A DNA stretch of 64,000 nt from a virus. Shown in pieces: positions 1-61,257 of this stretch (the first letter of the stretch is position 1; each line of letters starts with the position of its first letter). The stretch covers positions 3,139-67,138 of IMG/VR virus record IMGVR_UViG_3300036818_000107. One strand, 5' to 3'. The translations under genes were made by a program, and so were the position numbers. The notes under the pieces were generated by a model. It was given only the letters and a program-made list of their open reading frames with translations, was not told where the DNA came from and did not search any database.

Positions 1-74
1 AGACGGGTCATGAAATGCTTGTGCTCAGAGCAGGTCCCGATACAGTAGCCGCGATTTGGTGTTTTAGTTGCCAT
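1..74 (-). CDS. Partial small Cys/His protein (MATKTPNRGYCIGTCSEHKH...), running off the window edge
   Basis: ATG at 74 after AAGGAG. GTCSEH resembles GICSTH of 62472..62720 in the homologous module. Confidence 0.55.
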   Translation of the reverse strand, partial: MATKTPNRGYCIGTCSEHKHFMTR

Positions 75-80
75 GTGTGT

Positions 81-162
81 TAATATCTCCTTGATGTAAA
101 GACGAGGAACCCGGAGGTTCCGACTAGCCCGAGTGAAGTAGAGAGCCACTCGGGCTTTTTTT
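81..162. ncRNA. Double-hairpin leader or candidate antisense RNA, copy 1
   Basis: GGAACC/GGTTCC (106-121) and AGCCCGAGTG/CACTCGGGCT (126-156) followed by a T-tract. Same layout at 62722-62808. Confidence 0.5.
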
Positions 163-182
163 GTGCTTTTCAAGACACTCTT

Positions 183-309
183 ATTATGAAGCATATGCTT
201 CAATTTGTCAATGGTTTTTGCTATGAAATTGAAGCATATAATGGAAATTTGGGGAAATTGAAAATTGGTCTCTAAACCCCTTGACAAATTGAAGCATATG
301 CGGTATATT
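183..309. promoter_or_regulatory. Divergent sigma70 promoters with repeated operator TGAAGCATATGCTTCA
   Basis: Minus strand TTGACA(206-211)-17-CATAAT; plus strand TTGACA(281)-17-TATATT. Palindrome at 187-202, partial copies at 226-240 and 286-301. Confidence 0.8.
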
Positions 310-349
310 ATGAATGTGCAACGGCACACGAAACGTTTGACTAAGGAGT

Positions 350-628
350 ATGGCTATGCCAAGTGAGGAGCAACAGCCAAATAGTGAGGGAGATGACAAG
401 CTGAAAGAGTGGTATACCGCTGGGCAAGCTGCAAAAAAGCTAAGCGAAAACAGCGGGAAGCCAATCGATCCCGATTACGTTTTCAAGCTTGCTTATCTGG
501 GGAAAATAAGCACTATGAAGCTGGGTATACGGGTAACTCTCTACAGCAAAAAGGATGTGGATAGTTACAAAGTCGGAGGTAGAGGTAGAAGACCTGCCAA
601 GGACAGCAAGCAAGCAGACGCGGCATAG
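350..628 (+). CDS. Xis/MerR-like HTH regulator
   Basis: WYTAGQAAKKL HTH pattern. Paralog of 37728..37952. Ends in AA. Confidence 0.7.
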   Translation: MAMPSEEQQPNSEGDDKLKEWYTAGQAAKKLSENSGKPIDPDYVFKLAYLGKISTMKLGIRVTLYSKKDVDSYKVGGRGRRPAKDSKQADAA

Positions 629-766
629 CCTGGGCACGTGGCCTATCAACTGATGAGGCAGACAGAGCCACGAGCCAGTAACTATTGATGTAAGTATAGT
701 GAAGATTGCACCATTTGTGCAAGGTGCAAATGTTCTACTCCCGTTTGGGAGGAAAGGAGTGATTGA

Positions 767-937
767 ATGGCACAGCAGAACGGCTTTACCGACATTGCAC
801 TGAGAGAAGTGCATACAGGTGAGAAGACGATTGAGGATCTCGAGCGCAAAGTCAAGTTTCTCAGCAAGAGATCGGATGAGACATCTCATAAGATGCTTGA
901 AGGCATCCAAGCAGCTCTCGACATTCTGAAGAAGTAG
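767..937 (+). CDS. 56-aa hypothetical protein (MAQQNGFTDIALREVH...), absent from the ORF track
   Basis: AAGGAG RBS; near-identical copy starts at 63841. Confidence 0.75.
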   Translation: MAQQNGFTDIALREVHTGEKTIEDLERKVKFLSKRSDETSHKMLEGIQAALDILKK

Positions 938-993
938 CGCGTCGATAGTCGGTCTGGGTGCCGTAAAGCCCGTAGTGCAAGAGAGGAGTTGAA

Positions 994-1134
994 TTGAAGC
1001 TAATCCGATATCTAGTCGGTGCTTGGGTAGCTGCTGAGATGATCGCAAGCTTCTTGGAGAGGACTGAGCATCGCGGTTTTTGTAGAGGGTATGAGGAAGG
1101 GATGGAAGATTTCTATCCAGAGGAGGAAGCATGA
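994..1134 (+). CDS. 46-aa hypothetical protein (MKLIRYLVGAW...)
   Basis: GAGGAG RBS, TTG start, stop overlaps the next ATG (ATGA). Confidence 0.55.
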   Translation: MKLIRYLVGAWVAAEMIASFLERTEHRGFCRGYEEGMEDFYPEEEA

Positions 1135-1556
1135 ATCAACCCACTGAAGACCGCTTGAAGCATCTCGAAGCTGAGCAGAAGCAGCTCAAAGAGCAAGTGC
1201 AGCGTATTGAGCAAGCCACGGAGCCTATCAATGTCAGGATCGAGCGTGGGTTGCCAGTCCCAGAGGCACAACTGCTGCAAACGCTTGTCACCATGGCAGG
1301 GACCAATGCCACGGAAATGGCACTGCTCAAAGGCGAGATGCTAGAGGTGAGAGCTGATATCACAGCGATTAGAGAGAGTCAGGCCGACTTTCGAGACACG
1401 CTCGAAGAAGTCAGGTCAACTCTAGCAACAACAGTGGCGAGCAAAGGCAATATCGATGCCGTTGACACGCGAGTCCATGTCGTTGAGCAGATTCAGCAAG
1501 AGCATGGCGGGATGCTGAGAGAGATCTTGGCACGACTGCCAGAGAAAGATAAGTAG
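1131..1556 (+). CDS. Coiled-coil hypothetical protein
   Basis: GAGGAGG RBS and heptad pattern. Confidence 0.7.
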   Translation: MNQPTEDRLKHLEAEQKQLKEQVQRIEQATEPINVRIERGLPVPEAQLLQTLVTMAGTNATEMALLKGEMLEVRADITAIRESQADFRDTLEEVRSTLATTVASKGNIDAVDTRVHVVEQIQQEHGGMLREILARLPEKDK

Positions 1557-1564
1557 TGTGTAGC

Positions 1565-1670
1565 GATCTACTCTTGAGTAGCCGTAGGAAGCCTCAAGAG
1601 TAGATCTGACCCTAAAGCAAGAGTTAGCCTTGCCAGGACTGGTGTGAGTTTAAACCTCCTGGCTGGCAAG
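1565..1670 (+). promoter_or_regulatory. Double-hairpin leader before the membrane/ATPase operon
   Basis: GATCTACTCTTGAG..CTCAAGAGTAGATC and CTTGCCAG..CTGGCAAG, then AAGGAGG. Confidence 0.55.
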
Positions 1671-1687
1671 AGTCAAGGAGGTTTTTT

Positions 1688-1924
1688 ATGTCTACAGAGA
1701 AACAGGGACCATATCACATTGAAGAGCGTCCCAGCCCACATGGCAAGCTTGTGCGTGTCCAGGCGCATAAGACATTTACCCCAAGAATAAGCACATCGCT
1801 CCCGGTGAGTAGAAATGGCGCGATGTATGAGTTGCCTGCATTTAATTTAAGCAGTGGCGAAAAGCTTATATTGAGCATGGTAGAAGAGGACGATGTGGTG
1901 ATTGACGGTGGAGGTGCAGCATAA
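1688..1924 (+). CDS. Hypothetical protein, first gene of the transfer-like operon
   Basis: AAGGAGG RBS; coupled to the next ORF. Confidence 0.7.
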   Translation: MSTEKQGPYHIEERPSPHGKLVRVQAHKTFTPRISTSLPVSRNGAMYELPAFNLSSGEKLILSMVEEDDVVIDGGGAA

Positions 1925-2106
1925 TGGAGAATCGAAAGAGAGTTATGAAACCAATAAATATTGCCAAGATAGCTCTTACAGCATTAATGCTGTTTATGGC
2001 GATCCTTATGCTAATAGAGCATAAGCCATATGGGTATGTTGTGCTCGTACTTGCGTTTATGTGCTTCATGTCGATTTTTAGCAAATACCCAAGCAGGAAG
2101 AGGTGA
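1924..2106 (+). CDS. Small 2-TM membrane protein
   Basis: Two hydrophobic segments with basic termini. Confidence 0.65.
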   Translation: MENRKRVMKPINIAKIALTALMLFMAILMLIEHKPYGYVVLVLAFMCFMSIFSKYPSRKR

Positions 2107-2110
2107 TGGC

Positions 2111-2608
2111 ATGAAAGAGTCTCCACTTGTGCATTTTTGGCACACTCTGTGGTCTGGAATATTCTTCCTGCTCATATCCACATACAGCATCGGTAGTACA
2201 GAGAGTTGGATAAATGGTGGGACTGCTCAGAATGTCCGTCCGTCTTTTAGTGTATTCTGGCAAATCTACGATGTCTGGAACGGGGTCTATGCGGGAAGAG
2301 CAGCAGTAGCTATCTTGATAGCCTTCTTTCTGTGGTTCCTCTGGACAGGCATCGCATTCTACTTTGAAGCATATAAGATGCATCTAAATGCAATGCACAA
2401 AGGTGCTGGTGGAACGTTCATAACTGTCATATGGATTTTGACTGCTGTTGACTCCTATGCTAACTGGATAAGTGTCTCCACATGGAATATCGACTGGTAT
2501 TGGGAGGCGACTATCTCCATAGCCATTGGGGTGGCCCTCATGTACTTAGGGCATTTTGCCATAACCCACTTTCTCAAAGGATTGCAAGGTATGAAAGGAG
2601 GTGCTTGA
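2111..2608 (+). CDS. Multi-TM membrane protein (about 4 TM)
   Basis: GAGGTG RBS before ATG 2111; several hydrophobic helices. Confidence 0.75.
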   Translation: MKESPLVHFWHTLWSGIFFLLISTYSIGSTESWINGGTAQNVRPSFSVFWQIYDVWNGVYAGRAAVAILIAFFLWFLWTGIAFYFEAYKMHLNAMHKGAGGTFITVIWILTAVDSYANWISVSTWNIDWYWEATISIAIGVALMYLGHFAITHFLKGLQGMKGGA

Positions 2609-2610
2609 TC

Positions 2611-4059
2611 ATGGAAGATGATGGAGAGAAGCTGAAACCCAAAGCTACATTGACACCTAATGCCACAGGGGCGCTCGCAGCAGGCGGGGGAATTGTCGCT
2701 CTAGATGTGCTGACTCATGCAGGGCCCGCAGGGCTACTTGTAGCTGGTATCGGAACTTGGATCATGGCTCGCCACACGTCAGATTTCCTGTATATGAAGG
2801 ATAAATTGGTAAATCATTTTGTGCATTCTCCTGATACATCGGAGCAAGGTCCCAGCTTTGTTGATCGGTTGCTAAGTCGTAGCGCGGCAGAAGAGTCCGC
2901 ACCTGCAAGCTTGCCACAGGAGAGGAAAGCGTCTCTTCTCAAGAAGCTTGTAAGCACTCAGAATCAGAACGTCGTTGACCTGGGGCCAAATCTCCAGCTA
3001 GACATCAACGATATAGCGGGAAAAGCCACATTCATTTGTGGCATCCGCAGATCAGGGAAGACCACACTCGGTGTGAGGATGGCAGAAGAGATGGGTGGCA
3101 AGTTCAACATACCGATGCTTATCCCTGACCTCAAAGGGGACTGGCTGTCCTGTATCGACACACTGCCAAATGCTGTCATCCTGCGCCAGGGGGAGGCAAC
3201 AGAAAAGAATGCGGTCTCACATGGCTATGCGATCTGTGAAGAGGGGCTGCAGCTAATTCTTGACGTGGCCTCCTTCGATGATATGAGCGAAGCTGCTCTT
3301 GTCATAGCGGGAATGATAGCGGGACTATTCCTCTGGGAGAAAAAGCATCCAGACGCCCGGCGCTTGTGTGCAGTCTTTCTTGACGAGGCACAATCCTACT
3401 TGCCTCAAGATGTGAAGGACAGCATCATAAGCGACCCGGTAGCTAGAGACGCGATGATGAATGCCTACATGCAGGTGCTAGCCGTTGGTGGCTCTCTGGG
3501 CTTGTTCCCGGTCATTCTCACTCAGCGGATATCCCAAGTAGCTAAGAAAATTGTCGCTCAGTCAGAGCTGGCGTTCCTGCTGAAGCAGACAATGGACCTG
3601 GATATCAACAGGTACCAGAGCTTCACAACTGTGCAAAAAGAGAAGATCAGAGCACTGAAACAGGGACAAGGGATCTATGTGGATATCGAGGGTGCAAGCT
3701 CAGTCCACATGTTCCACAAGAGGACATCTTCGGACAGCATGTCACGGACTCCTAGCGTCAATGTGCCTCAAAAAGCTCCTGCTCCTGTGAGCAAGCAGCC
3801 GATTGAGGACTACGAGGATCTGCCTGATCTTTGGGAAGATGAAGACGAGGATGATTCGTTGCCAGTTGTCCCTGCCAGGAGAGAGTATCAATCAGTGAAA
3901 AGCGCGTCTGCTACGCCAGAGAGATTTAAGGCAGCATTAGCCGCTTATCAGGCCGGGAATACGTCCTCTCGCAAACTCGGGCAAGCTCTAGGGATCAATA
4001 AAGACAAAGCGGCTGGTCTGCTTCAGCAGATGAGAGCGGCACGGCTTATCGATGGATAG
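2611..4059 (+). CDS. Membrane-anchored FtsK/HerA-superfamily ATPase with C-terminal HTH (TraB-like architecture)
   Basis: N-terminal hydrophobic hairpin, Walker A GIRRSGKT, DLKGDW, Walker B VFLDEAQ, LTQR motif, and a C-terminal SSRKLGQALGINKDKA..RAARLID resembling the FtsK gamma domain. Confidence 0.8.
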   Translation: MEDDGEKLKPKATLTPNATGALAAGGGIVALDVLTHAGPAGLLVAGIGTWIMARHTSDFLYMKDKLVNHFVHSPDTSEQGPSFVDRLLSRSAAEESAPASLPQERKASLLKKLVSTQNQNVVDLGPNLQLDINDIAGKATFICGIRRSGKTTLGVRMAEEMGGKFNIPMLIPDLKGDWLSCIDTLPNAVILRQGEATEKNAVSHGYAICEEGLQLILDVASFDDMSEAALVIAGMIAGLFLWEKKHPDARRLCAVFLDEAQSYLPQDVKDSIISDPVARDAMMNAYMQVLAVGGSLGLFPVILTQRISQVAKKIVAQSELAFLLKQTMDLDINRYQSFTTVQKEKIRALKQGQGIYVDIEGASSVHMFHKRTSSDSMSRTPSVNVPQKAPAPVSKQPIEDYEDLPDLWEDEDEDDSLPVVPARREYQSVKSASATPERFKAALAAYQAGNTSSRKLGQALGINKDKAAGLLQQMRAARLIDG

Positions 4060-4143
4060 ACAGTCTAGACAGACACGTCTGATAGACGAATTTAAGCTCA
4101 GAATCACCCTGTCAGACACTTTTGTCTAGACGATTTAGACAGA
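4057..4143. repeat. Cluster of YAGAC short repeats (clt-like locus)
   Basis: Seven YAGAC copies (AGAC at 4058, 4067, 4071, 4084, 4114, 4128, 4137) plus three inverted GTCT within about 87 bp. Confidence 0.7.
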
Positions 4144-4160
4144 AAAAGGGACTTATAGCA

Positions 4161-5411
4161 ATGGACATATCCTATCTCTTCAATTCATACATCACATCGG
4201 CAGTCGCGGCCCTAGTCGGTAGTCTCGCTATCCTCTGGCTGGCCTGGTCGAGTCGATCAGCTCTAGCCAGTTGGGTGACGTGGCTCCAAAAGAAACTGTT
4301 CACTCGTTCTGGTTTCTTCTGGACTGTCAACATTATCTTCATGGCAGTCAGTGTCATCCATGCAGGTGTGTTTTTCGGCATCACTGGCAACGGTCATGAT
4401 ATCCCAGGAGTTGCACAGTATCTTGGTTTTGCAGTCTCGTTCTTTCTCGACTTGGTAACCATCATTTTGATGCAAGCTTTACTCGAAGCAAAGTACCGAT
4501 CTGATGAGTTGAGGGCACGGCAATTTTTGCTCTTTATCACCATCTGCTGTGCGACCAGCACCTTTGCAAATCTGGCAATATCATTGAACGATTTTGACGC
4601 TACAACCTTGCTTCCAAATGCGCCATTTTGGATCCAAATTGCGGCACCATATGTACTGGCATCATTCCCGTTATTCGTGATCCTTATGAGTATCGCTGCA
4701 GAGATGATTGTGAACGTCAGACCACTGGATAGTTTGAACGAGGAAGAGTACGAAGCTGATGAGAAAAAGCGCGTCAAGTTGATGCAGATCCGCAACGACT
4801 ATTTGCAACGTCAGGCGGATGAGGAATTGCGTGCTTTGCAGATCCGCAGCCAGATGCAAATGAACAAGCGGATGAGGGCTGGCAGACTGCCGAATTCGTT
4901 CCGTTGGTTCTGGGAAAAGCCGATCGATATTGACGCTGTTATAGCTGGTGTGAGTACGCAATTGAAAGCCGCGTATGAGCCACAAATTGACGCACTAAAA
5001 CAGCAGTTGGAGGAGGTCAAAAATCAGCAACCTATTATGCAATCTGAAGAGCAGATAGAGACCTTCCTGGACGACAATTTAGAGTCTCCAATTGTGCAGA
5101 CTGAAGACTCGCAGCCAGTGCAAAATAGTATTGCGCCGAGTGCAGATTCGAGCGTTCCTCCAGTGCAGAAAAAAGCACAACCTGCGGACGCAAAACAGCG
5201 TGTGCAAAAGCTCCTCAAAAAGGATCCAAAATTGACTGCAAAACAGATAGCCGATAGGGCAGAAATATCCGAGTCCTATGCGCAAAAATTGAAAGCTCTC
5301 ATTGCAAAAGAGGCTGCTCCAAAACCTCGCAATACTGACGAATTGCCAGTACAAAACGGACACCGAAAAGTGACCCAGCCTCTGGCGGATTATGTGCCAT
5401 TGGAGGTCTAG
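4161..5411 (+). CDS. Multi-TM + coiled-coil + C-terminal HTH protein (DUF2637/SpdB2-like architecture)
   Basis: About 5 TM helices, a charged coiled coil, a P/Q linker, and HTH LTAKQIADRAEISESYAQKL. Confidence 0.7.
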   Translation: MDISYLFNSYITSAVAALVGSLAILWLAWSSRSALASWVTWLQKKLFTRSGFFWTVNIIFMAVSVIHAGVFFGITGNGHDIPGVAQYLGFAVSFFLDLVTIILMQALLEAKYRSDELRARQFLLFITICCATSTFANLAISLNDFDATTLLPNAPFWIQIAAPYVLASFPLFVILMSIAAEMIVNVRPLDSLNEEEYEADEKKRVKLMQIRNDYLQRQADEELRALQIRSQMQMNKRMRAGRLPNSFRWFWEKPIDIDAVIAGVSTQLKAAYEPQIDALKQQLEEVKNQQPIMQSEEQIETFLDDNLESPIVQTEDSQPVQNSIAPSADSSVPPVQKKAQPADAKQRVQKLLKKDPKLTAKQIADRAEISESYAQKLKALIAKEAAPKPRNTDELPVQNGHRKVTQPLADYVPLEV

Positions 5412-5424
5412 GTGATCATCTGCA

Positions 5425-5462
5425 ATAGCTCTGTGTTGGGATGTCAACACAGAGCTATTTTT
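5425..5462 (+). terminator. Intrinsic terminator
   Basis: AATAGCTCTGTGTTG..CAACACAGAGCTATT plus T-tract. Confidence 0.8.
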
Positions 5463-5542
5463 ATGCTCTTTACCGGACATGACCGGGTGTGTGAGTAATG
5501 CTATAATTTTGTTACCGGGTATGTACGGATGAGGGAGGAACG

Positions 5543-6193
5543 ATGAAGTATTTAACAGCCATTGAAGCGTCAAAGCGCATAGGAGTAGCTGAGAAGACAA
5601 TACGGCTATGGGTCAAACAGGGAAAGCTAGAGGCTCATCACCCAGCCAAGAACCGTCTAGCCATTGCAGAGGCCGATGTAGAGCGGATGGCACAAGAACG
5701 TCAACTCTACTATGGCACTAGACCGGAAATGTCCTCATCTACCCACACGTTACCGGATGCTTCCGTACATGACGACATAGAGCAGAGGTTGGCATCCATG
5801 GCCCAGTCAATCGCCAACCTCAACGCCACTATAGATATCCAATCACGCAGGCTCAACGAGCTGACCAAACGTGTTGCAGAGCTAGAGGCTAGGAACGTCC
5901 CTACACAGCCCGTCCCACCGTCAACCACTGCTGATACCATCCCACAACCAAAGCCTCAGATTGCCACTACAGCCATAAATAGCCTACCTGACGGCTGCAT
6001 ATTGGCGCGTGATTTTGCACGGATGCATGGCGTGCCTGAGAGTAGCTTTCGTCGTCATATTGCTAGTGGTATTGGCGGTGACATGGTAGAAGCTGGGTCG
6101 TCTAAGCACGGGCGCTACCTGACTCCTGAGCAGCAGGAAGCAACTCTTGAGTTTTGGCAGAGGCACAATGTTAAATTTACACGGCTAGAATAA
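5543..6193 (+). CDS. Xis-like HTH protein with coiled coil and second HTH
   Basis: YLTAIEASKRIGVAEKTIRLWVKQGKL; TGCTATAAT extended -10 at about 5499. Confidence 0.8.
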   Translation: MKYLTAIEASKRIGVAEKTIRLWVKQGKLEAHHPAKNRLAIAEADVERMAQERQLYYGTRPEMSSSTHTLPDASVHDDIEQRLASMAQSIANLNATIDIQSRRLNELTKRVAELEARNVPTQPVPPSTTADTIPQPKPQIATTAINSLPDGCILARDFARMHGVPESSFRRHIASGIGGDMVEAGSSKHGRYLTPEQQEATLEFWQRHNVKFTRLE

Positions 6194-6273
6194 GAGTGGT
6201 ATTGACACCAATTGATATGATAGAGGCATTGACTGTACACCAACCATAAAAAGTAAAGGAGATTATACAAGAC

Positions 6274-6462
6274 ATGTCTGAATTGATGACAGTTTCAGAA
6301 GTTGCTGACGCTTTGCGTGTCGATGCGACAACTGTGCGCCGCTGGGTTAAAAACGGAGTGCTTGAGGCCGTCGTTTTACCCCACCAGAACAAGCGTCAAG
6401 CGTATCGTATCAAGCGATCGACACTGGAAACGCTGTTGAGCAACACGACTGCTGCAGCATAG
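6274..6462 (+). CDS. Excisionase-like HTH_17 protein
   Basis: LMTVSEVADALRVDATTVRRWVKNGVL. Confidence 0.85.
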   Translation: MSELMTVSEVADALRVDATTVRRWVKNGVLEAVVLPHQNKRQAYRIKRSTLETLLSNTTAAA

Positions 6463-6519
6463 CCAAGACGCAAAGGGAGCATTCTGAAAAATGAGTGCTC
6501 TTTCTTTTTGCCTATCTCT

Positions 6520-6604
6520 AGATGCATGACGGGTTTTACGGGATGTCAAAAAGTGACTTGAAAAGGTATTGACAATCATCTTGAATATATGTTATCATTC
6601 AAGA
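6520..6604 (+). promoter_or_regulatory. Cassette boundary motif, promoter and operator (cassette A)
   Basis: AGATGCATGACGGG at 6520; TTGACA(6569)-18-TATCAT with TG; inverted repeat TCTTGAAT/ATTCAAGA. Confidence 0.75.
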
Positions 6605-6642
6605 GTACCAAGTGAGGTGCGAGAAAACGAAGGAGCAAGCAG

Positions 6643-7242
6643 ATGAGAACCATCGAAACAGGGAAATACAAAGGCAAAACCCTAGCAAATTGTCCAGTAG
6701 AGTATCTGAAATGGGCAAGCAAGCATGAGCACGTTTATGCAAAGGGGAATCGGTGGGTCTCACAAGATGCGAAGTTCCTGCTCGAAAAGGAAGAGGTTGT
6801 TGTGATTGATCATGAAATTCCGTTCGGAAGATATCGCGGACAGAAGCTCAGTCAGCTTTCTCGTGATTATCTGGTCTGGATGCAAGATGCCGATTATAAT
6901 CCCAAGCCAATTATCCGCAATGGAGTGGATTGGACAGAGTTGGCAATCCAAGAGCTGGGCCGTCGCCGTCAGGCAGTCAGGCAAGAGATCGAAGAGTCTC
7001 TCAAAGTATTCTCCTATCTGCCTGATGAGAAGGGCGATAGGCTTACTGAGATCTTGGCAGATGAGTTGGTAAAATCAGGCGTTTCATTCAGCGGTTCCAA
7101 CGATGTTGAGAATATGCTGTTGAAAGCTGGATACAGAGGCATGGGAATACGTGTCGATCCTCTACAGATCTTTGTTCGTGCGTCTCTTATCAAAAAGGGG
7201 CAATTGCCTCAGTACAACGAGAAAGGCGATAGGGTAAATTAA
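6643..7242 (+). CDS. Protein with two DUF3820/QSregVF_b-like domains
   Basis: GKYKGKTL..CPVEYLKW and PFGRYRGQKL..LSRDYLVW. Confidence 0.7.
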   Translation: MRTIETGKYKGKTLANCPVEYLKWASKHEHVYAKGNRWVSQDAKFLLEKEEVVVIDHEIPFGRYRGQKLSQLSRDYLVWMQDADYNPKPIIRNGVDWTELAIQELGRRRQAVRQEIEESLKVFSYLPDEKGDRLTEILADELVKSGVSFSGSNDVENMLLKAGYRGMGIRVDPLQIFVRASLIKKGQLPQYNEKGDRVN

Positions 7243-16535: not shown

Positions 16536-18605
16536 TCACGCATACGTATTCGTTCCATAGACGCCAGTACCATAAGTACTTGTATTTGGTGGTGTAGATG
16601 TAAAGGTTGGTACTGAGTCAGAAAACCTCCCTGTTTCCGCAAAGACGAGATCTGTTTGTTGTGGATTGCTAATATTAAGCGTAGTTTTACTTCTATTGAC
16701 TGCTTTATGGTTATTGCGGATATGATCTATAAGTGTTGGGCGATATGCTCCAAGGGTATAGGAGTACTCTGCATTCCCATTGCCAAGATACACGAAGTCT
16801 ACTTGCTGCACGACAAATGGTTGATTAATGATATTATCATCACTTGATGTGAAAAAGACAATATAGCCAGCAGGAATGTATTGTGGACATTTCAGCGTCT
16901 TGATGGTTAGAGGCTTGCTCGATTTTGTGATCTCTGCCAACCCACGCTGTATCGCCGCTGCAATAGTCAGGATATTCGTGTCATTCACCTTTGCGCTATA
17001 AGTAGGCATGGTATAGTCGGGTGCGACTGGCATGTCTGACATGTCCTGATCCATGACACGGACAGAAACCGGAGCTTCATAGGTATAGTTGCAGGTCACG
17101 TTATTTGTTCCTGCACTTGGATTAAAGTTAAAGTGGATCGTCTTATTGACTTTATCGATTTCACAGGTATAACCACCTACTCCAAGCGTCGGGCCTGTCC
17201 CTTTGAAGAAGGCTTTTTGAGCATTCCCGTTAGATATAACACTTTTTACATCATAAGGCTGCTGAGTAAGATTAAACGTACTTGTCGATCCATTTGCGCT
17301 AAATGAATCAGTGATGGCAGGTGCTAGGAACTTGCCGCCTGTAACCTTAATGTCCCTCTTCCTCTGAGTGCCATCCTCTTCAGAGGCATATTCCTCATAA
17401 TTGAACGTGGTAACACCATCAGCTACCCCATCAGTGAGGCTAAAAGGTGAGGCCGAATAAAACGAGGGATTGTAGCGAAGCGTGTAGTACGGATCAACAT
17501 ATGGGATATATCCGCTCTCATCAGAAAGATGGTTCAATACCTCTCGAAAAGAGTTATCGCTGTAAGAAACAGAGTCAATAAGAGCACCACGGATAACAGG
17601 CAGAGCTGAGCTTGTATTAGGCGCTACCGAGGCATTTAATTGGCCTGGGAAGTAGTTGGTTATGACGCTCGCAATGATCTGATCGTCGTATTGGCTCTGA
17701 AAGGTCGCATTGATATTCCCGTCTTCTAGGATTTGACCAGGACCAGCTACCTCTAACTCCCATGTACGCCCCGGCCCGTCATAGCTCGGTATTTTGATGT
17801 CATCAATTGTCCCTGCAAACATGCGACATGCCCTAGAAGTCGTATTGTCAGGCATCACAGCACAGGCTACCTGAGCGTTATTGCAGTCAGGAGTGGGATA
17901 TGAGACGCCTTGAGTGGTCGCGAACCACATAGGCTCGAGCTGAGCGAAGCCATAGACCACACTTCCACTATTGCTTCCTCCAACTGTTGTCTGACCGCCA
18001 ATAAGGGCTTGGACAAACACGGTATCTGCAGGTGCTACAGCAGAGATTGAGACGCGCTGCTGAGCGTTACCTGTGGTGGATGTGAAGGTGAGGACATTGG
18101 TAGCGAGCGCGTTCCCAAAGGCGTCCAGGAATTGTAGCATGACCTGAGCCTGGGCGTTGACCAACGGGGTTGCTATCGTGGCATAGATCGAAAGCATGTA
18201 CTTTTGCCCAACATGCACGTATCCCCTAGGGCATTCCTGGACGTACAGTCCTTGGCCAAGCGCAGAATTACTAAAGGCCATCGTGAGATTCAGCCCGCCG
18301 CCTGTCACACTGATAATTCCGGTGAGCGATCCTATGGCAACCCAGTTCGTGGGATAGAGGCCATTCAGCAAGAAATTATGTGCTGGCACGGTAGGGATTG
18401 ACACGCCACTGAGGGTATTAGTAGGTGCTGCATTCTCATCAAAGATGATCACCTCATCTCCAATGGTAAAGTCGAGCGATGAGTCAGGATCAAGAAGCTC
18501 AAGAGTAGCCCTTGGCTGCTGATCTCCTATATGGCCCGAATGCGTCAATCCGCTTCCAGGTATTTTGAGCGTGCGATCAAAGCCCCCGATCACAGTGTAT
18601 GGCAT
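16536..18605 (-). CDS. Tail tip/hub protein with inserted CBM-like domain
   Basis: Follows the tape measure gene; GQKYMLSIYA..QRVSISAVAP..AQLE insert; MFAGTIDD hub motif. Confidence 0.7.
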   Translation of the reverse strand: MPYTVIGGFDRTLKIPGSGLTHSGHIGDQQPRATLELLDPDSSLDFTIGDEVIIFDENAAPTNTLSGVSIPTVPAHNFLLNGLYPTNWVAIGSLTGIISVTGGGLNLTMAFSNSALGQGLYVQECPRGYVHVGQKYMLSIYATIATPLVNAQAQVMLQFLDAFGNALATNVLTFTSTTGNAQQRVSISAVAPADTVFVQALIGGQTTVGGSNSGSVVYGFAQLEPMWFATTQGVSYPTPDCNNAQVACAVMPDNTTSRACRMFAGTIDDIKIPSYDGPGRTWELEVAGPGQILEDGNINATFQSQYDDQIIASVITNYFPGQLNASVAPNTSSALPVIRGALIDSVSYSDNSFREVLNHLSDESGYIPYVDPYYTLRYNPSFYSASPFSLTDGVADGVTTFNYEEYASEEDGTQRKRDIKVTGGKFLAPAITDSFSANGSTSTFNLTQQPYDVKSVISNGNAQKAFFKGTGPTLGVGGYTCEIDKVNKTIHFNFNPSAGTNNVTCNYTYEAPVSVRVMDQDMSDMPVAPDYTMPTYSAKVNDTNILTIAAAIQRGLAEITKSSKPLTIKTLKCPQYIPAGYIVFFTSSDDNIINQPFVVQQVDFVYLGNGNAEYSYTLGAYRPTLIDHIRNNHKAVNRSKTTLNISNPQQTDLVFAETGRFSDSVPTFTSTPPNTSTYGTGVYGTNTYA

Positions 18606-21600
18606 TATTGCGCACCTCCGCTTGTCTGAGTGGTTAGAATGCCTGATCCCCGTAGTTTCCTACTAAGCTTGTCTTCTACCTGTTTTGTCAAGTCGTCAAC
18701 CTGGGCACGGCTCCACCCACCTTGTGTGGTGACGTTGATGTTGAAGGTTTGATGGACAACTACCGGGCCACCTGCGCTACCTCCTGATGAGGATGAGGAT
18801 GAGGATGAGGACTTGCCCACAAAGCTATTCGAGACGCTGGTATTGCTACTTTTTAGTGCGCTAATGCCAATAGGAGTTGAGAGCTTATTCACAGCGCTTT
18901 GGATAAGAGGAAGGTTATCAGTAAGTCCTTTGGCGTACATCTTGACGAAATTTGGTGCCCACTGATCAGCTTCTGAGCCAGGGCCTTCTTTTGTTGGGCT
19001 ATGGAAGCCAAGGAAGCTCGCGATTTTCTTGGCTGTATCGGCTAAGGCGGTGCCCACTGCTGCTGCTTTCGCTATGATGCCATTAATAAAACTTTGAATG
19101 AGGTTCTTTCCCCAGTCGAGCGCTTTTGCTCCCCATCCGCCTACTGTGGTAGAAAGTTGGTTCCACAGATCGCTTATTGGCTTGGATACATAGTTGGTCC
19201 AAGCATTCCTAAAGAAGGTTGAGACATTCGTCCACAGAGCAGTTAGCGGGGCGACAATATAATTAGCCCAAACACCACTAAAGAAGCTAGATACAGTTCC
19301 CCATAGCGCAACGAGCGGACCCGCGATATAGCTGTTCCAAGCATTGACAAAGAAGGATGAGATGGCAGCCCACACGCCCGCTACGAAGCCAATAGCTGCG
19401 CTAAACCCAAACTGAATAGCTCCTGAGATTTGAGCCCATAGCGTCGTGGCAAACCCGACAACGGCAGTCCAGGCCATAACCAGCCATGCAATGGTTGCCG
19501 TCCAAGCACCTTGCAGCCAAACAAAGCAGCCTATGAAGAACCTTACTATTGCATCTACTAACGCTTTAAAGTAGTAGTTATGGTTGTACAGCCATATGAA
19601 CAATGCCGCTATAGCCGTAATTGGGAAGAATATAACAGCTAAAGCCAGCATGGCCCCTATTTTTATAATATTAACGATAGTATTCCAATTATTCTTTATG
19701 CCCGTGATAATCCCATTCCACAAGCCAACAAAAAAGCCAACGATCTTATTCCATATCCCCACGAAAAAGCCAGCTATGCCATTCCACACATTAGTGAAGA
19801 AACTCCCGGTGGCGCCCATAGCACTCATAAACCAAGCCGTGAAGCCAGCCCAGACACCTTGCAGGAACTTGGTGATATCTCCCCAATGCTGGACAGCAAG
19901 AATGATTCCGGCTACTACCAAGGCTATAGCAGCCCCTATCAGCAGAAGAGGCCATGTCGCAGCTATCACACCCGCTGCAGCACTCCAAGCGGCTATGCCC
20001 CAAGCAATAAAGCCCGCTATGAGAGCAGGTAAGGTTGCAAGGAACGCACCTATCTGGATGGCAGCAAAAGCTACGCCTATCCCTATGAGGAGGTCTTTGA
20101 TTATTTGGGCTTGGACGCTATTTTCATTGAAGAATTCAAGCATTTGACCGAGATCAAACACAAATGTGTCAATAGCGGGAATAACCGTACTTGTCAGAAT
20201 AGAACCAAGAGCACCAAGAACATCCTGAACGATCGGGCCTATACTCTGCAAAGTCGAGAGATCCATCCTTTGGATTTGATTGCCTAGTGTCTCGAAATCT
20301 GCGAGCAGGTTGCTAAATTGGACTGATGAAAGCCAGTTGACAATGTTCCCAAAAACTTGCCCAACAATAGCCCCAAACTGCTGAATGATCGGCATGGTAT
20401 TCTGAAAACTACGCATAAACCATTGACCGATATCTTGCACAATAGGCGCAAGTTTCACGAATGCAGGTACGATGCTCGTGCTTACAAATTGCGCTACGAC
20501 TTGCAGAGCCCCGCCGACCTTTTCACCCATGGTGATAGCGAACTGCTGAAAGGCAGGACCAGACACGATTGTCCCTAGAGCTGCAATTCCACCCTTTACC
20601 CGATCAATAATCCCGCCCGTCTGTATCATCCCGTCTTTGAGCCCAAGGAAGCTATTGAGCCCCGTCTTGAGGTAGCCACTGAGGGTGGAGAGGATACCAG
20701 ATAGTGAGGCCGACTGTTTCGCCATACCCCCTTTGTAGAGCGGGTTCATCTCTATGCCTTTGGTAAGGGCATCGATGGCTTCTTTTGCTGGTATGCCGCC
20801 ATGGCCTGCTAGATCTCTTAACGCTTCTTTCGTCTTGCCAGTTGCTAGAGACATCGCACCTAGTGCGTCAATACCATGTGTCTGCAATTGACTGATATCG
20901 CCCCATGTCGCCACACCTGCTACCTGTATTTTGCCTATCTGATCGACAACAGAAGCCATCTCAGCTTCAGTGCCATGGCCTATGCCGAACAAAGCATCAC
21001 CGAGCGATGTCATGATGGGTATGGTTTTTTTAGCATCAATGCCCATGCCGATCAACTGAGCTGCATATCCTTGGACAGGCCCCGGCTCAAATGGAGTAAT
21101 GTCGGCAAAATGATTGAGCGTCTTAATCAGCTCAGAGGCAGCCTTTTGAGACCCACCTAGCAAGGTTGTGAAGCTTATTCCTAGTTGCTCGGCACTAGCA
21201 ATAGGCTCGAGTAGCGCTTGGCCTGCACTTATCGCCCATCCAGCGATATTCTTGATACCCGTCGTGGCGTTACCAATCTTTGAGGCAAAGTTGAGAAAGC
21301 CGCCACTTGCACGTTGTATTGTTCCTTCGAGAGAGGCGAAATGCTGTCCGAGTCGCGAGACCTTGGTGCCACCATCTTGCATCTCAGCAGATGCCTTCTG
21401 GACAGCACTAGCCAGCCCATTCTCAGCTACCTTGACCTTCTCAGCAGCGAGAGCAGCCCGTGCCTGAGCCAGCGTGAGTTGCTCAGTAGAGGCTTTCCCC
21501 CCGGACGCTATATCATCAGCTTTTTTGAGAGCAACAGCCGCCGACGCCTGTGCAACTTCCAGCTTTTTACCAGCCACAGAGGCATCTAGTTGAACCTTGG

Positions 21601-21769
21601 AGAGCTTGGAGATGTCAGTACCAGCCACAGCCGCCGCTTTACTGACGTTACCTAGACCAGCTTTTGCAACAGTGCCAAGCGCTTCCATATTGCCACCAAG
21701 TGCTTTTACTGCCTGTGAAGCGGCATCCTGGACTTGCAGACGAATACGCAAAAAGAGATCATCAGCCAC
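18605..21769 (-). CDS. Tape measure protein
   Basis: 1054 aa, Ala/Gly-rich, FADITPFE motif, Trp-periodic repeats. Confidence 0.93.
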   Translation of the reverse strand: MADDLFLRIRLQVQDAASQAVKALGGNMEALGTVAKAGLGNVSKAAAVAGTDISKLSKVQLDASVAGKKLEVAQASAAVALKKADDIASGGKASTEQLTLAQARAALAAEKVKVAENGLASAVQKASAEMQDGGTKVSRLGQHFASLEGTIQRASGGFLNFASKIGNATTGIKNIAGWAISAGQALLEPIASAEQLGISFTTLLGGSQKAASELIKTLNHFADITPFEPGPVQGYAAQLIGMGIDAKKTIPIMTSLGDALFGIGHGTEAEMASVVDQIGKIQVAGVATWGDISQLQTHGIDALGAMSLATGKTKEALRDLAGHGGIPAKEAIDALTKGIEMNPLYKGGMAKQSASLSGILSTLSGYLKTGLNSFLGLKDGMIQTGGIIDRVKGGIAALGTIVSGPAFQQFAITMGEKVGGALQVVAQFVSTSIVPAFVKLAPIVQDIGQWFMRSFQNTMPIIQQFGAIVGQVFGNIVNWLSSVQFSNLLADFETLGNQIQRMDLSTLQSIGPIVQDVLGALGSILTSTVIPAIDTFVFDLGQMLEFFNENSVQAQIIKDLLIGIGVAFAAIQIGAFLATLPALIAGFIAWGIAAWSAAAGVIAATWPLLLIGAAIALVVAGIILAVQHWGDITKFLQGVWAGFTAWFMSAMGATGSFFTNVWNGIAGFFVGIWNKIVGFFVGLWNGIITGIKNNWNTIVNIIKIGAMLALAVIFFPITAIAALFIWLYNHNYYFKALVDAIVRFFIGCFVWLQGAWTATIAWLVMAWTAVVGFATTLWAQISGAIQFGFSAAIGFVAGVWAAISSFFVNAWNSYIAGPLVALWGTVSSFFSGVWANYIVAPLTALWTNVSTFFRNAWTNYVSKPISDLWNQLSTTVGGWGAKALDWGKNLIQSFINGIIAKAAAVGTALADTAKKIASFLGFHSPTKEGPGSEADQWAPNFVKMYAKGLTDNLPLIQSAVNKLSTPIGISALKSSNTSVSNSFVGKSSSSSSSSSGGSAGGPVVVHQTFNINVTTQGGWSRAQVDDLTKQVEDKLSRKLRGSGILTTQTSGGAQ

Positions 21770-37727: not shown

Positions 37728-37952
37728 TCAGCTATTCCTCCTTCCTTTCTGTCTTATCACACACGCCTCTATATCCTCACGATTATACATAAGACGATTA
37801 TTTAGCCATTCTGTCCGTATTGGCTGTTTTTTGCTTTTTGACAAGAGTCGAACGTAATCCACAGATATCGGGCGACCCATTTTCTGACTAAGCATTTGAG
37901 ATGCATCCCGTGCAGATATATAGTCTGCAAGAGGAACTATTTTTTTAGGCAT
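37728..37952 (-). CDS. Xis/MerR-like HTH regulator
   Basis: YISARDASQML; paralog of 350..628. Confidence 0.7.
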   Translation of the reverse strand: MPKKIVPLADYISARDASQMLSQKMGRPISVDYVRLLSKSKKQPIRTEWLNNRLMYNREDIEACVIRQKGRRNS

Positions 37953-59631: not shown

Positions 59632-59766
59632 CACGTGGCTAGAGCAGAGCTGAGATGTCCAGGTCAAGAACAAACGATAAAAGATCGTCATGATGTAGAT
59701 TTGCCTCTAGAGCAGGTAGCAGGCAACATGCAGATTGTGTATGATTGCGAGAGGAAGGATTGAGCC

Positions 59767-61252: not shown

Positions 61253-61257
61253 GTGGC

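What the first reader, a model, noticed from the sequence alone, without database searches (positions are those of the whole stretch)
1688..5462. Phage-linked TraB/SpdB-like module: possible virion-independent dsDNA transfer or spreading along filaments
Seen: one coupled operon of two small membrane proteins, a TM-anchored FtsK/HerA ATPase ending in a gamma-like HTH, a short-repeat locus, and a multi-TM/coiled-coil/HTH protein. I see no relaxase or T4SS genes. Established: Streptomyces plasmids and AICEs move dsDNA with this architecture (TraB, the clt repeats, SpdB2/DUF2637 proteins). Inference: a tailed phage of a probably mycelial Ktedonobacteria host may pump its genome through septa or between hyphae, using a HerA/DUF87-type motor rather than a classical FtsK one.
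Basis: partly seen in the sequence, partly recalled or inferred. Interest (0 to 1): 0.88.

Follow-up and report, generated by a model that had tools for sequence, protein, structure and literature searches.

The report
Phage membrane DNA motor with loading site
A soil phage of filamentous Chloroflexota carries a membrane-anchored ring ATPase with a DNA-reading tail, membrane partner proteins and its own repeat-rich docking site, a layout that resembles the machinery Streptomyces plasmids use to pump double-stranded DNA between cells.

Summary
The operon is real, and I read it as a sequence-targeted membrane DNA pump. Its role is untested.

**Gene order** (1688-5459, + strand):
- a 78-aa protein without TM helices
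- a 60-aa protein with 2 TM helices
- a 165-aa multi-TM protein (o3)
- a 482-aa ATPase
- a 101-nt repeat locus
- a protein of 5 TM helices, a coiled coil and an HTH (o5)
- a terminator

**The ATPase.** It belongs to the HerA clade, not the FtsK clade (VIA Z 26.7 to HerA, 17.3 to FtsK). It lacks HerA's N-terminal barrel. It has two weakly hydrophobic N-terminal helices and a small C-terminal HTH.

**Not supported.** Homology of that HTH to FtsK gamma, and of o5 to SpdB2/DUF2637, was not shown.

**New here:**
- o3 sits directly upstream of the ATPase in 19 of 22 related loci.
- Every one of 26 non-redundant loci carries an array of short inverted repeats at the ATPase 3' end. The array lies just after the stop, or inside the coding linker before the HTH. 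Many arrays share a centre motif.
- HTH type and repeat motif change together, independently of ATPase-core identity.
- In three loci the partner ATPase scores as FtsK/SpoIIIE instead.

This matches the TraB-clt logic of Streptomyces plasmids. Transfer itself is untested, and a genome-entry motor is a live rival.

The parts
1565..1606 (+). 14-bp perfect inverted repeat after the upstream gene (1131-1556); probable upstream boundary of the unit
   Evidence: I10; sequence read. The terminator scan did not list it.
1688..1924 (+). o1, 78 aa, no hydrophobic segment. Not found in related loci, so its membership of the module is doubtful.
   Evidence: AGGAGG before the ATG; no relatives among the loci
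1924..2106 (+). o2, 60 aa, two TM helices; its start overlaps the o1 stop
   Evidence: Small 2-TM ORFs stand at the same place in several loci, but no sequence relatives were found.
2111..2608 (+). o3, 165 aa (192 aa if read from 2030), about four TM helices. Conserved partner directly upstream of the ATPase; no known family.
   Evidence: 19 of 22 loci; no Pfam family
2611..4059 (+). ATPase, 482 aa. Order of parts: two weakly hydrophobic N-terminal helices, a linker, a HerA-clade P-loop core (about 114-385), a disordered acidic linker (394-434), and a 3-helix HTH (437-476).
4057..4143 (.). Repeat array (candidate loading site). Ten YAGAC copies, two GTCTAGAC palindromes (4063, 4124), imperfect 23-nt inverted arms (4063-4085 and 4109-4131), and a centre that holds the shared motif at about 4091-4103.
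   Evidence: (I4, D9)
4161..5411 (+). o5, 416 aa: five TM helices (to about residue 185), long helices 194-239 and 257-289, a disordered stretch, and a C-terminal HTH at 341-385.
5424..5459 (+). Terminator-like hairpin (16 pairs, then a T run) that closes the unit
   Evidence: (I8)

Best explanation
The unit is a sequence-targeted, membrane-anchored dsDNA translocation module.

**Inferred mechanism.**
- The HerA-clade ATPase forms a ring at the membrane, held by its N-terminal helical hairpin and probably by the polytopic protein o3.
- Its flexible-linker-tethered C-terminal HTH domains read the short repeats of the array at the 3' end of its own gene. This loads the ring, in a defined orientation, on the element's own DNA.
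- ATP hydrolysis then pumps that DNA through a membrane passage. o3 and, where present, o5 (polytopic, coiled coil, HTH) would help to form or dock that passage.

**Most likely role.** By analogy with TraB, clt and the Spd proteins of Streptomyces plasmids, it moves replicated phage or element genomes across septa or cell boundaries of a filamentous host without a capsid.

**Shown here:** the fold class, the domain order, the conserved o3-ATPase pairing, the conserved array, and the joint change of HTH type and repeat type.

**Inferred:** ring formation, HTH-array binding, pumping, direction and biological role.
For: 1. **Fold and active-site residues.**
 - The core aligns best to HerA hexameric translocases: VIA Z 26.7 to 4d2i (rmsd 3.5, 252 residues) and Z 25.8 to 9c1m.
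 - Conjugation motors score lower: VirB4 21.2, TrwB 19.2, TcpA 18.7, FtsK 17.3.
 - The profile of 65 relatives hits HerA chains at E 5e-17. 33 of 65 relatives hit DUF87.
 - The Walker A lysine, the Walker B D-E and a Q-R pair are invariant or nearly so.

2. **Architecture.** A membrane segment, then the motor, a disordered linker and an HTH. This is the domain order described for TraB/TraA: two TM domains, a translocase and C-terminal clt recognition (PMC3583192 passages; PMC4447253 passages).

3. **o3 pairing.** o3 relatives lie directly upstream of the ATPase in 19 of 22 non-redundant loci with at least 500 nt of upstream sequence. 15 pass the strict positional rule. Four more overlap the longest ATPase ORF.

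4. **The array travels with the ATPase.**
 - By eye, all 26 non-redundant loci carry an array of short inverted repeats tied to the ATPase 3' end: 14 just after the stop, 10 inside the coding linker before the HTH segment, 1 after an intervening small ORF, and 1 truncated copy that keeps only one arm.
 - Against 213 other gene ends of the same loci, the top 5-mer count in the 140 nt after the stop reaches the control 95th percentile in 12 of 26 loci (Mann-Whitney p 1.5e-7). The inverted-repeat score does so in 7 of 26 (p 7e-4).
 - The locus-wide best inverted 5-mer array lies within -550 to +450 nt of the stop in 12 of 26 loci, where that span is mostly 6-25% of a locus and up to 53%.

5. **DNA-level selection.** Arrays inside coding sequence force low-complexity peptides. 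Fold energies show no consistent strand preference: the plus strand is lower in 9 of 14 and the minus strand in 5 of 14. This points to a DNA-level, protein-bound element rather than an RNA.

6. **Shared centre.** The part-palindromic centre pattern T[GA]AGCT[CT][AG] is enriched 8.5-fold on the gene strand and 14.2-fold on the opposite strand near the stop. It occurs in 10 of 26 loci (the pattern was defined post hoc).

7. **HTH type and repeat type change together, apart from the core**.
 - The window's core is closest to L015 (62%). Yet it shares its HTH type and AGAC-type repeats with L008 (core 27%) and L018 (49%).
 - L015 shares its HTH type and purine-rich repeats with L006, L005 and L067 (core 26-36%).
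 - L019 (core 63% to L018) shares its HTH type and TG/CA arms with L009 (26%).

8. **Arrays belong to the ATPase, not to o5.** Five stand-alone o5 relatives of the 440-aa group have a conserved promoter-like upstream region and no such array.

9. **Motor exchange.** In L031, L032 and L037 the same o3-ATPase-array-o5 order holds, but the ATPase passes Pfam FtsK_SpoIIIE (E 7.6e-7, 29.2 bits, cut-off 24).

10. **Precedents in print.**
 - clt loci are arrays of 5-9-bp direct repeats plus imperfect inverted repeats. They overlap or adjoin the tra 3' end and differ between plasmids (PMC3583192).
 - A HerA-like hexameric, membrane-associated ATPase (TdtA) is needed for DNA donation in Thermus (PMC5365140 passages).

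11. **Mobile distribution.** The ATPase family was found in 19 of 151 sampled genomes of the class (18 of 150 without the unpublished G068) and o5 in 7 of 151. Neighbours are phage or element replication and methylase genes.
Against: - No binding, ring formation, pumping or transfer was tested.
- In the window's own protein the membrane anchor is weak. No 19-residue segment passes 1.6.
- The HTH and the array are physically adjacent. Recombination would move them together whether or not they interact, so point 7 is suggestive, not proof. L068 is an exception: TG/CA arms with a different HTH.
- The loci are related to one another. The array calls for all 26 are by eye, and the centre pattern is post hoc.
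- In the window the same half-site also builds the iterons at 43094-43192 and the two palindromes at 38009 and 38042 upstream of a - strand gene. The 4057-4143 sites could therefore be bound by another protein, such as the replication initiator or a regulator.
- o5 is not an obligate partner. An o5-family gene lies within 2.5 kb downstream in 9 of 22 loci, and many o5 relatives stand alone beside histidine kinase or PNPase genes.
- The nearest structural relatives include defence HerA proteins. PADLOC gives weak hits: mad8 E 7.5e-7, HerA E 1e-5.
- No cultured phage in INPHARED has a relative, so no phenotype is known.
Confidence: 0.4

Rival explanations
1. Genome-entry (second-step) motor. The operon lies on the first DNA to enter and is expressed early. 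The membrane motor loads at its array on the partly injected genome and pulls the rest into the cell.
For: - The unit lies in an early-looking region next to divergent promoter-like sites (11 of 12 matches each, at 183-211 and 281-309) and far from the late genes.
- The family is phage-linked: 12 IMG/VR contigs carry it.
- A cis site next to the motor gene, membrane partners and a motor that loads in a set orientation all fit this role.
- Energy-dependent, early-protein-dependent completion of DNA entry is known for other phages (phi29, T5). This is recalled knowledge and comes from no call.
Against: - No known entry system uses a HerA- or FtsK-type pump (recalled).
- Which genome end enters first is unknown. 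The record's left 4 kb is a diverged copy of its right end, so the physical ends are undefined.
- The module also occurs beside primase-polymerase genes and in large MAG contigs whose phage nature I did not verify.
Confidence: 0.2
2. Segregation or anchoring device of a plasmid-like prophage. The array is a centromere, the HTH-bearing ATPase is both its binding protein and its motor, and the membrane anchor places copies in hyphal compartments or spores.
For: - No integrase of either class was found in the 91%-complete record.
- Arrays of short direct and inverted repeats next to the motor operon are typical of plasmid centromeres (recalled).
- The next gene (5543-6193) is an HTH plus coiled-coil protein with a weak RacA-type hit (NCBIfam E 2e-4).
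Against: - Known partition motors are ParA, ParM or TubZ types, not HerA types (recalled).
- Polytopic partners are not expected for partition.
- A lytic lifestyle is not excluded.
- This reading overlaps the best explanation if segregation works by pumping.
Confidence: 0.12
3. Defence or superinfection exclusion. A prophage-borne HerA-type membrane ATPase senses or expels foreign DNA, and the array marks self or regulates the operon.
For: - The best Foldseek and several VIA matches are HerA subunits of Sir2-HerA, DUF4297-HerA and Tdp/Dnd systems.
- PADLOC gives weak hits: mad8 E 7.5e-7 and HerA E 1e-5, plus mad1 for the next gene (E 8.3e-8 over a short HTH).
- The family is sporadic in genomes.
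Against: - No effector partner (nuclease, Sir2) lies in the operon. o1, o2, o3 and o5 have no Pfam or PADLOC family, apart from one marginal PADLOC match for o2 (RTasSLATT, E 0.0077).
- The HerA N-terminal barrel is missing.
- A conserved self-array that changes together with the HTH is not a feature of described HerA defence systems, to my knowledge.
- The scores are low (27 and 22.6 bits).
Confidence: 0.1
4. The repeats are only transcriptional operators or promoter elements for the downstream gene, bound by some phage regulator. The ATPase has an unrelated membrane function.
For: - In the window the GTCTAGAC palindrome occurs exactly four times, as two pairs. The other pair (38009, 38042) lies 57-97 nt upstream of a - strand HTH-like gene.
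- Streptomyces spd operons have regulator-bound repeats upstream (TraR; PMC4447253).
- The array lies just upstream of o5.
Against: - In 10 of 26 loci the array lies inside the ATPase coding sequence, before the HTH segment and not before a gene start.
- Stand-alone o5 genes lack it.
- No sigma-70-like promoter was called in 4057-4160.
- Its position follows the ATPase, not the downstream gene.
Confidence: 0.08

Closest known systems
TraB/TraA - clt - Spd system of Streptomyces conjugative plasmids and AICEs (pSVH1, pIJ101, pWTY27)
   Same: - A single membrane-anchored ring translocase of the FtsK-HerA superfamily with a C-terminal HTH.
- A cis site of short direct and inverted repeats that overlaps or adjoins the 3' end of the motor gene and differs between elements.
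- Translationally coupled small and polytopic membrane proteins.
- No relaxase and no T4SS.
- A filamentous host.
(PMC3583192; PMC4447253; PMC3429521.)
   Different: - The motor is HerA-clade, not FtsK/SpoIIIE. Only L031, L032 and L037 carry an FtsK-scoring motor.
- o3 and o5 have no detectable homology to Spd proteins.
- o5 has its TM domain first and its coiled coil after. SpdB2 has an N-terminal coiled coil.
- The carrier is a tailed phage of Chloroflexota.
- The arrays are inverted blocks around a shared centre.
TdtA of Thermus thermophilus ICETh1 (transjugation)
   Same: A HerA-like hexameric ATPase on a mobile element, membrane-associated and required for DNA donation. It shows that HerA-clade motors can serve DNA export (PMC5365140 passages).
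   Different: TdtA was sought by its HAS-barrel motif and sits in an operon with a NurA-like nuclease, a restriction enzyme and a methylase. The passages read describe no TM helices, no C-terminal HTH and no cis array.
FtsK / SpoIIIE with KOPS/SRS and the gamma domain
   Same: A membrane-anchored dsDNA pump whose small C-terminal HTH reads short oriented motifs. Those motifs are arranged in opposite polarity on the two sides of a target site.
   Different: - FtsK is a different clade (Z 17.3 against 26.7).
- Homology of the HTH to gamma is not demonstrable: hhalign probability 1.6%, and PF09397 hits 2 of 65 relatives.
- Here the motifs are concentrated in one roughly 100-nt array rather than spread over a chromosome.
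HerA of NurA-HerA repair and of defence systems (Sir2-HerA, DUF4297-HerA, Tdp, DndH)
   Same: The best sequence-profile and fold matches of the ATPase core.
   Different: No HAS barrel, no nuclease or Sir2 partner, added membrane helices and HTH, membrane-protein neighbours.
Type IV coupling proteins (TrwB, TcpA, VirD4)
   Same: An N-terminal membrane anchor plus a motor of the FtsK-HerA superfamily. 4 of 65 relatives hit TrwB_AAD_bind. VIA Z 19.2 and 18.7.
   Different: No relaxase and no VirB4 in the record. The fold match is lower than to HerA.

Membership tests
FtsK/SpoIIIE-type conjugative translocase (TraB/Tra) | Motor domain of the FtsK_SpoIIIE family (PF01580) | tested here: not met
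   No PF01580 hit at E up to 0.1 for the window's ATPase. DUF87 is the commonest family among 65 relatives, at 33. VIA Z 17.3 to FtsK against 26.7 to HerA. A related locus (L031) does pass PF01580.
FtsK/SpoIIIE-type conjugative translocase (TraB/Tra) | N-terminal transmembrane anchor | tested here: inconclusive
   Two 15-residue segments score 1.76 and 1.58, and none passes the 19-residue 1.6 threshold. The model shows helices over residues 19-68, with block pLDDT 69-84 over residues 31-60. 15 of 20 homologues have a called segment. The hydropathy scan is crude.
FtsK/SpoIIIE-type conjugative translocase (TraB/Tra) | C-terminal winged HTH that binds repeats of a clt next to the gene | tested here: inconclusive
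   An HTH is present (HTH_psq E 0.0042). The array is present and conserved in position. HTH type and repeat type change together. Binding itself cannot be tested with these tools.
HerA / DUF87 clade of the FtsK-HerA superfamily | P-loop core with HerA-type motifs and fold | tested here: met
   Profile E 5e-17 to 8wiv and E 2.3e-14 to 4d2i. VIA Z 26.7. Foldseek E 2e-11. 33 of 65 relatives hit DUF87.
HerA / DUF87 clade of the FtsK-HerA superfamily | N-terminal HAS barrel domain | tested here: not met
   In the model, residues 1-113 are helices and low-confidence coil with no strands. Matches to HerA chains begin at about residue 74-118.
HerA defence or repair systems | Adjacent effector or nuclease partner (NurA, Sir2, DUF4297 and the like) | tested here: not met
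   No Pfam, NCBIfam or PADLOC family of that kind in o1, o2, o3, o5 or the flanking genes.
FtsK gamma domain (PF09397) | Sequence membership of the C-terminal HTH | tested here: not met
   No PF09397 hit for the window. 2 of 65 relatives hit at E up to 0.01. The profile matches 2j5p at E 0.27. hhalign against six Ktedonobacteria FtsK gamma domains gives probability 1.6%, E 0.031. In five genomes that carry the ATPase, PF09397 gave six matches over its cut-off, all in long open frames of 659-1044 aa, plus one weak sub-cut-off match in a 34-aa frame interrupted by 3 TAG stops, too short to be an ATPase gene.
DUF2637 (PF10935) | HMM match of the o5 membrane domain | tested here: not met
   0 of 48 o5 relatives at E up to 0.05. 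No match in the record at E up to 1. The Atlas structure lead is weak: TM 0.45/0.41 over 132 residues.
SpdB2 / SpdB_N (PF27080) | HMM match; four TM helices with an N-terminal coiled coil; pore formation | not testable with these tools
   PF27080 is not in the Pfam copy. The Atlas feature score of 0.76 is only a lead. No phiC31 protein matches the o5 profiles (best E 0.53; hhalign to gp25 gives probability 0.4%). The domain order differs from SpdB2 as described in PMC4447253.

The most novel reading that the evidence does not exclude
Tailed phages and related elements of mycelial Chloroflexota carry a conjugation-like second route of spread. A HerA-clade membrane pump loads at its own inverted-repeat array and drives naked, replicated phage genomes through septa, into neighbouring hyphae or into spores. 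This would be convergent with Streptomyces TraB-clt-Spd, built from non-homologous membrane parts and an exchangeable HTH-plus-array specificity cassette.
Probability: 0.25. Interest if true: 0.92.

Novelty: new variant of a known kind. Interest (0 to 1): 0.75.

Why it matters
If the reading holds:
- TraB-type dsDNA translocation would no longer be an actinomycete speciality. It would have arisen again in another filamentous phylum, with a motor from a different clade of the same superfamily. The two motor clades would be interchangeable within one gene order.
- It would give a concrete, testable case of a virus with a capsid-independent way of moving its genome. That idea has been voiced only in passing for actinophages.
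- It would provide a compact, specificity-swappable pair of HTH and repeat array for studying how ring translocases are loaded on dsDNA.

Independent of function, two results stand as sequence-level findings:
- An undescribed conserved pair, o3 plus a membrane HerA-type ATPase.
- A cis array that persists even inside coding sequence.

Tried and rejected
**Searches and tests that gave nothing**
- Single-sequence searches of the ATPase against Pfam, PHROGs, NCBIfam and PDB sequences gave nothing usable. Only the profile and the fold worked.
- o5 fold searches gave no match above noise. The best VIA Z was 8.7, to designed helical bundles. BFVD gave no match at E up to 0.001. The PDB profile search gave none.
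- o3 has no Pfam family in any of 18 members. It is unrelated to o5 by hhalign (probability 0.65%).
- Complex prediction of o3 with the ATPase N-terminus (residues 1-118) gave no verdict.
- Rfam found no match in 1-7000.
- The look-up of sequencing runs listed no RNA holder and only small-share soil DNA runs of one study.
- The listing of cluster members gave no informative names for 10 relatives.

**Where relatives were sought**
- INPHARED phages: no tblastn match.
- PLSDB plasmids: only distant HerA-like genes.
- The Clavibacter pCSL1 gene matches the family profile (E 3e-34). It has no TM segment, no o3 relative and no array, so I set it aside as a different branch.
- IMG/VR holds no o5 relative.

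**Ideas tested and dropped**
- The idea that stand-alone o5 genes would carry the array was rejected.
- The RNA-structure reading of the array was weakened by the lack of strand bias.

**Literature**
- Searches found no paper joining Ktedonobacter with conjugation, TraB or FtsK (none among the listed rows) and no description of a membrane HerA with an HTH on prophages.
- One search listed Ktedonobacteria-phage papers. I saw titles and abstract starts only.
- Supplements are closed, and PMC148434 (the phiC31 genome paper) is not held. I therefore could not see which phiC31 or VWB gene is the published SpdB2 homologue.

I went on with the search for related loci and the genome search, as the message advised.
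- the alignment had no conserved stretch. I repeated the scan with the closer alignment A2.
- accession not in the collection.
- family not in the library.
- the script stopped on a wrong frame for o3. This was corrected.

Full report
**Setting.**
- The window is bases 3139-67138 of a 67,138-nt IMG/VR virus record (linear; CheckV 91% complete).
- It is a tailed phage, with these PHROG matches: tape measure 18605-21769 (E 8.6e-41), major head protein, protease, portal (E 1.8e-44), large terminase (E 6.1e-30) and amidase.
- Pfam finds DnaB (E 7.2e-98), Rad52 and one of the two ParB-N/methyltransferase fusions; the other fusion, 35441-36820, was matched by PHROGs.
- No tRNA was found. No tyrosine or serine recombinase, no relaxase (PF03432) and no VirB4 (PF03135) was found in the record.
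- The record's left 4 kb is a diverged copy (78-94% identity) of its right end, so the physical ends are not defined.
- Close relatives of the two large proteins bear names of Ktedonobacteraceae, Ktedonobacterales or Chloroflexi MAG records. That Ktedonobacteria are mycelial spore-formers is recalled knowledge and comes from no call.

**The operon.**
- On the + strand, after an inverted repeat at 1565-1606, lie:
 - o1 (1688-1924, 78 aa)
 - o2 (1924-2106, 60 aa)
 - o3 (2111-2608, 165 aa; a longer frame opens at 2030)
 - the ATPase (2611-4059, 482 aa)
 - a 101-nt gap
 - o5 (4161-5411, 416 aa)
 - a terminator-like hairpin (5424-5459)
.
- Stops and starts overlap or are a few bases apart up to the ATPase.
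- The starts at 2611 and 4161 agree with the N-termini of relatives.
- o1 has no hydrophobic segment and no relatives among the loci. o2 has two TM helices. o3 has about four. o5 has five.

**The ATPase.**
- Alone it matches no family convincingly.
- The library of representatives holds 566 relatives at E up to 0.001, 274 at up to 1e-10 and 58 at up to 1e-30.
- Of 65 aligned relatives, 33 hit DUF87 (HerA central domain), 5 HerA_C, 5 Zot, 4 TrwB_AAD_bind and 2 FtsK_gamma.
- Their profile hits solved HerA chains: 8wiv E 5.2e-17, 9c1m, 8xau, 4d2i E 2.3e-14. It also hits the STIV B204 packaging ATPase at E 1.6e-5.
- The AlphaFold model has mean pLDDT 81, with a core of about 97-98. Its parts in order are:
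 - helices over residues 19-68
 - a low-confidence linker
 - an alpha/beta core at about 114-385
 - a disordered acidic stretch at 394-434
 - a three-helix domain at 437-476
- VIA-align ranks the core as follows: HerA first (4d2i Z 26.7; 9c1m 25.8), then DndH-C 23.5, TdpA 23.2, VirB4 21.2, B204 19.3, TrwB 19.2, EccC 19.0, TcpA 18.7 and FtsK 17.3. Foldseek agrees.
- The Walker A lysine, the Walker B D-E and a Q-R pair are invariant or nearly so.
- There is no HerA-type N-terminal barrel.
- The N-terminal helices are only weakly hydrophobic in the window's protein. They are called as TM segments in 15 of 20 homologues.
- The C-terminal domain is an HTH (HTH_psq E 0.0042). Its likeness to FtsK gamma is one of position and size only:
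 - hhalign against six Ktedonobacteria gamma domains gives probability 1.6%.
 - the profile of 16 C-termini finds nothing in the PDB.
 - across the family the C-termini fall into several HTH types.

**o3 and o5.**
- An iterated profile started from o3 finds relatives in 21 of the 36 related loci then held (L003-L021 and L023-L044, duplicates among them), always at the 5' side of the ATPase.
- Among 22 non-redundant loci with at least 500 nt upstream, 15 pass a strict positional rule. Four more (L005, L010, L011, L019) overlap the longest ATPase ORF. That gives 19 of 22.
- Profiles of membrane proteins can drift on composition. The constant position argues against drift here.
- o3 has no Pfam family.
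- o5 has 95 relatives at E up to 0.001. They share a highly conserved membrane domain with invariant charged residues and a variable C-terminus.
- None of 48 o5 relatives hits DUF2637. The record has no PF10935 match. PF27080 (SpdB_N) is not in the library.
- The ESM Atlas gives only leads: SpdB_N at feature score 0.76, and a DUF2637 cluster at TM 0.45.
- No phiC31 protein matches the o5 profiles.
- o5-family genes follow the ATPase within 2.5 kb in 9 of 22 loci.
- Many o5 relatives stand alone, next to histidine kinase, PNPase, NACHT or caspase genes.
- In a sample of 151 genomes of the class, o5 was found in 7 and the ATPase family in 19 (18 of 150 without the unpublished G068). Both are sporadic, as expected of mobile genes.
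- Neighbours of the module in MAG contigs are a primase-polymerase, DUF3987, DUF5131, a methylase and an Xre regulator.

**The repeat locus in the window.**
- Region 4057-4143 holds seven YAGAC on the + strand, three on the - strand, two GTCTAGAC palindromes, and 23-nt imperfect inverted arms.
- TAGAC is not enriched in the window as a whole (107 found against 108 expected).
- It clusters at three places: here; at 38009-38049 (the only other two exact GTCTAGAC, upstream of a - strand HTH-like ORF); and at 43094-43192 (iteron-like units inside the ORF upstream of dnaB).
- From the window alone, the site could therefore belong to another DNA-binding protein.

**The repeat locus across loci.**
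- I collected 26 non-redundant loci with the ATPase 3' end, from IMG/VR, GTDB genomes and metagenomes.
- Reading them, each has an array of short repeats arranged as two inverted blocks:
 - 14 directly after the stop
 - 10 inside the coding sequence of the disordered linker. For the seven of these centred (L004, L010, L011, L014, L016, L066, L071), the centres lie about 215-330 nt before the stop.
 - 1 after an intervening small ORF (L009)
 - 1 in a truncated gene that keeps one arm only (L021)
- The unit differs from locus to locus. Types include AGAC-type, purine-rich GAGAG/GGGAG-type, TG/CA runs, an 8-nt unit repeated seven times, and others.
- Controls:
 - Against 213 other gene ends in the same loci, the top 5-mer count in the 140 nt after the stop reaches the control 95th percentile in 12 of 26 (p 1.5e-7). 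The inverted-repeat score does so in 7 of 26 (p 7e-4).
 - The best inverted 5-mer array of the whole locus lies near the ATPase stop in 12 of 26.
- Many arrays share a part-palindromic centre, T[GA]AGCT[CT][AG]. It is enriched 8.5- and 14.2-fold near the stop and occurs in 10 of 26 loci (post hoc).
- Fold energies do not favour one strand, and Rfam has no match.
- Arrays inside genes impose odd low-complexity peptides. This points to selection on the DNA.
- Five stand-alone o5 genes lack the array. It therefore goes with the ATPase.

**Co-variation.**
- C-terminal HTH types and repeat types go together, while ATPase-core identity says otherwise:
 - The window's core is 62% identical to L015. 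Yet it shares HTH type and AGAC-type repeats with L008 (27%) and L018 (49%).
 - L015 groups by HTH and purine-rich repeats with L006, L005 and L067 (26-36%).
 - L019 (63% to L018) groups with L009 (26%) by HTH and TG/CA arms.
 - L068 is an exception.
- Because the HTH segment and the array are adjacent, recombination would move them together in any case. The result fits recognition but does not prove it.

**Motor exchange.** L031, L032 and L037 keep the order small 2-TM ORF, o3 relative, ATPase, array, o5. Their ATPase matches the family profile only at E 1e-17 and passes Pfam FtsK_SpoIIIE (E 7.6e-7). L040 carries a further divergent, DUF87-scoring ATPase.

**Comparison with what is known.**
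- From passages of PMC3583192: Streptomyces transfer needs one tra gene and a clt. The pWTY27 clt covers 16 bp within traA and the adjacent 159 bp. TraA has two TM domains. clt loci of different plasmids hold different 5-9-bp direct repeats plus imperfect inverted repeats. The C-terminal winged HTH of TraB reads 8-bp repeats.
- From passages of PMC4447253: spd genes are translationally coupled. SpdB2 is an oligomeric four-TM pore-forming protein that binds DNA. [quoted passage not shown]
- From passages of PMC5365140: TdtA, a HerA-like hexameric membrane-associated ATPase of an ICE, is needed for DNA donation.
- From passages of PMC3429521: clt is the conceptual equivalent of oriT.
- The present module works like this scheme in its anatomy. 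It is not a member of the TraB, SpdB2 or gamma families by any test I could run.

**Verdict.**
- The anatomy is best explained by a cis-site-loaded membrane dsDNA pump.
- Its role, whether spread between compartments or cells, genome entry, segregation or exclusion, is open.
- I put the TraB-like reading first (0.4) and the entry motor second (0.2).
- Novelty: a new variant of a known kind.

Noticed in passing
window 38009-38049: Two copies of a 13-17-nt palindrome built on GTCTAGAC, 33 nt apart, lie 57-97 nt upstream of a - strand 74-aa HTH-like ORF (37728-37952). They are the only other exact GTCTAGAC in the window and look like an operator pair.
   Followed up: partly
window 43094-43192: Iteron-like units (a half-site pair separated by four T) are repeated four to five times inside the 404-aa ORF 42396-43610 (- strand), directly upstream of dnaB. 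This is probably the replication origin inside the initiator gene. It shares the TAGAC half-site with the array at 4057-4143.
   Followed up: partly
record 1-4065 (L002 and window 1-926) versus window 59725-64000: The left end of the record is a diverged copy of the right end, at 92%, 79% and 94% identity in three blocks. This may be two variants assembled as one, or a terminal redundancy with divergence.
   Followed up: partly
L021 (GTDB contig), ATPase 3' end: The ATPase ORF breaks off inside the core and runs straight into what looks like one arm of an array. This appears to be a deletion derivative.
   Followed up: no
L020 / L062, ATPase gene: One in-frame TAA interrupts the ATPase before the linker. 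The array and an HTH-like segment follow in the same region. This is either a broken copy or a sequencing error.
   Followed up: no
L024-L029, L038, L039, L046, L048: Stand-alone o5 relatives (about 440 aa, 73-78% identical to the window's membrane domain) lie beside histidine kinase or PNPase genes in L026, L028 and L039. L024, L028, L029, L046 and L048 share a conserved promoter-like upstream sequence.
   Followed up: partly
window 5543-6193: The next gene encodes an HTH_17/MerR-type HTH, a coiled coil and a second HTH-like end. It has weak hits to the chromosome-anchoring protein RacA (E 2e-4) and to PADLOC mad1 (E 8.3e-8).
   Followed up: no
L022 (Clavibacter sepedonicus plasmid pCSL1) 8974-10839: A 621-aa HerA-like protein matches the family profile (E 3e-34). 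It is cytosolic, ends in two tandem HTH-like repeats, and lies 4 kb from an FtsK/SpoIIIE-domain gene.
   Followed up: partly
window 6643-7242: A 199-aa protein carries two QSregVF_b repeats (Pfam E 1e-13) in the early region.
   Followed up: no
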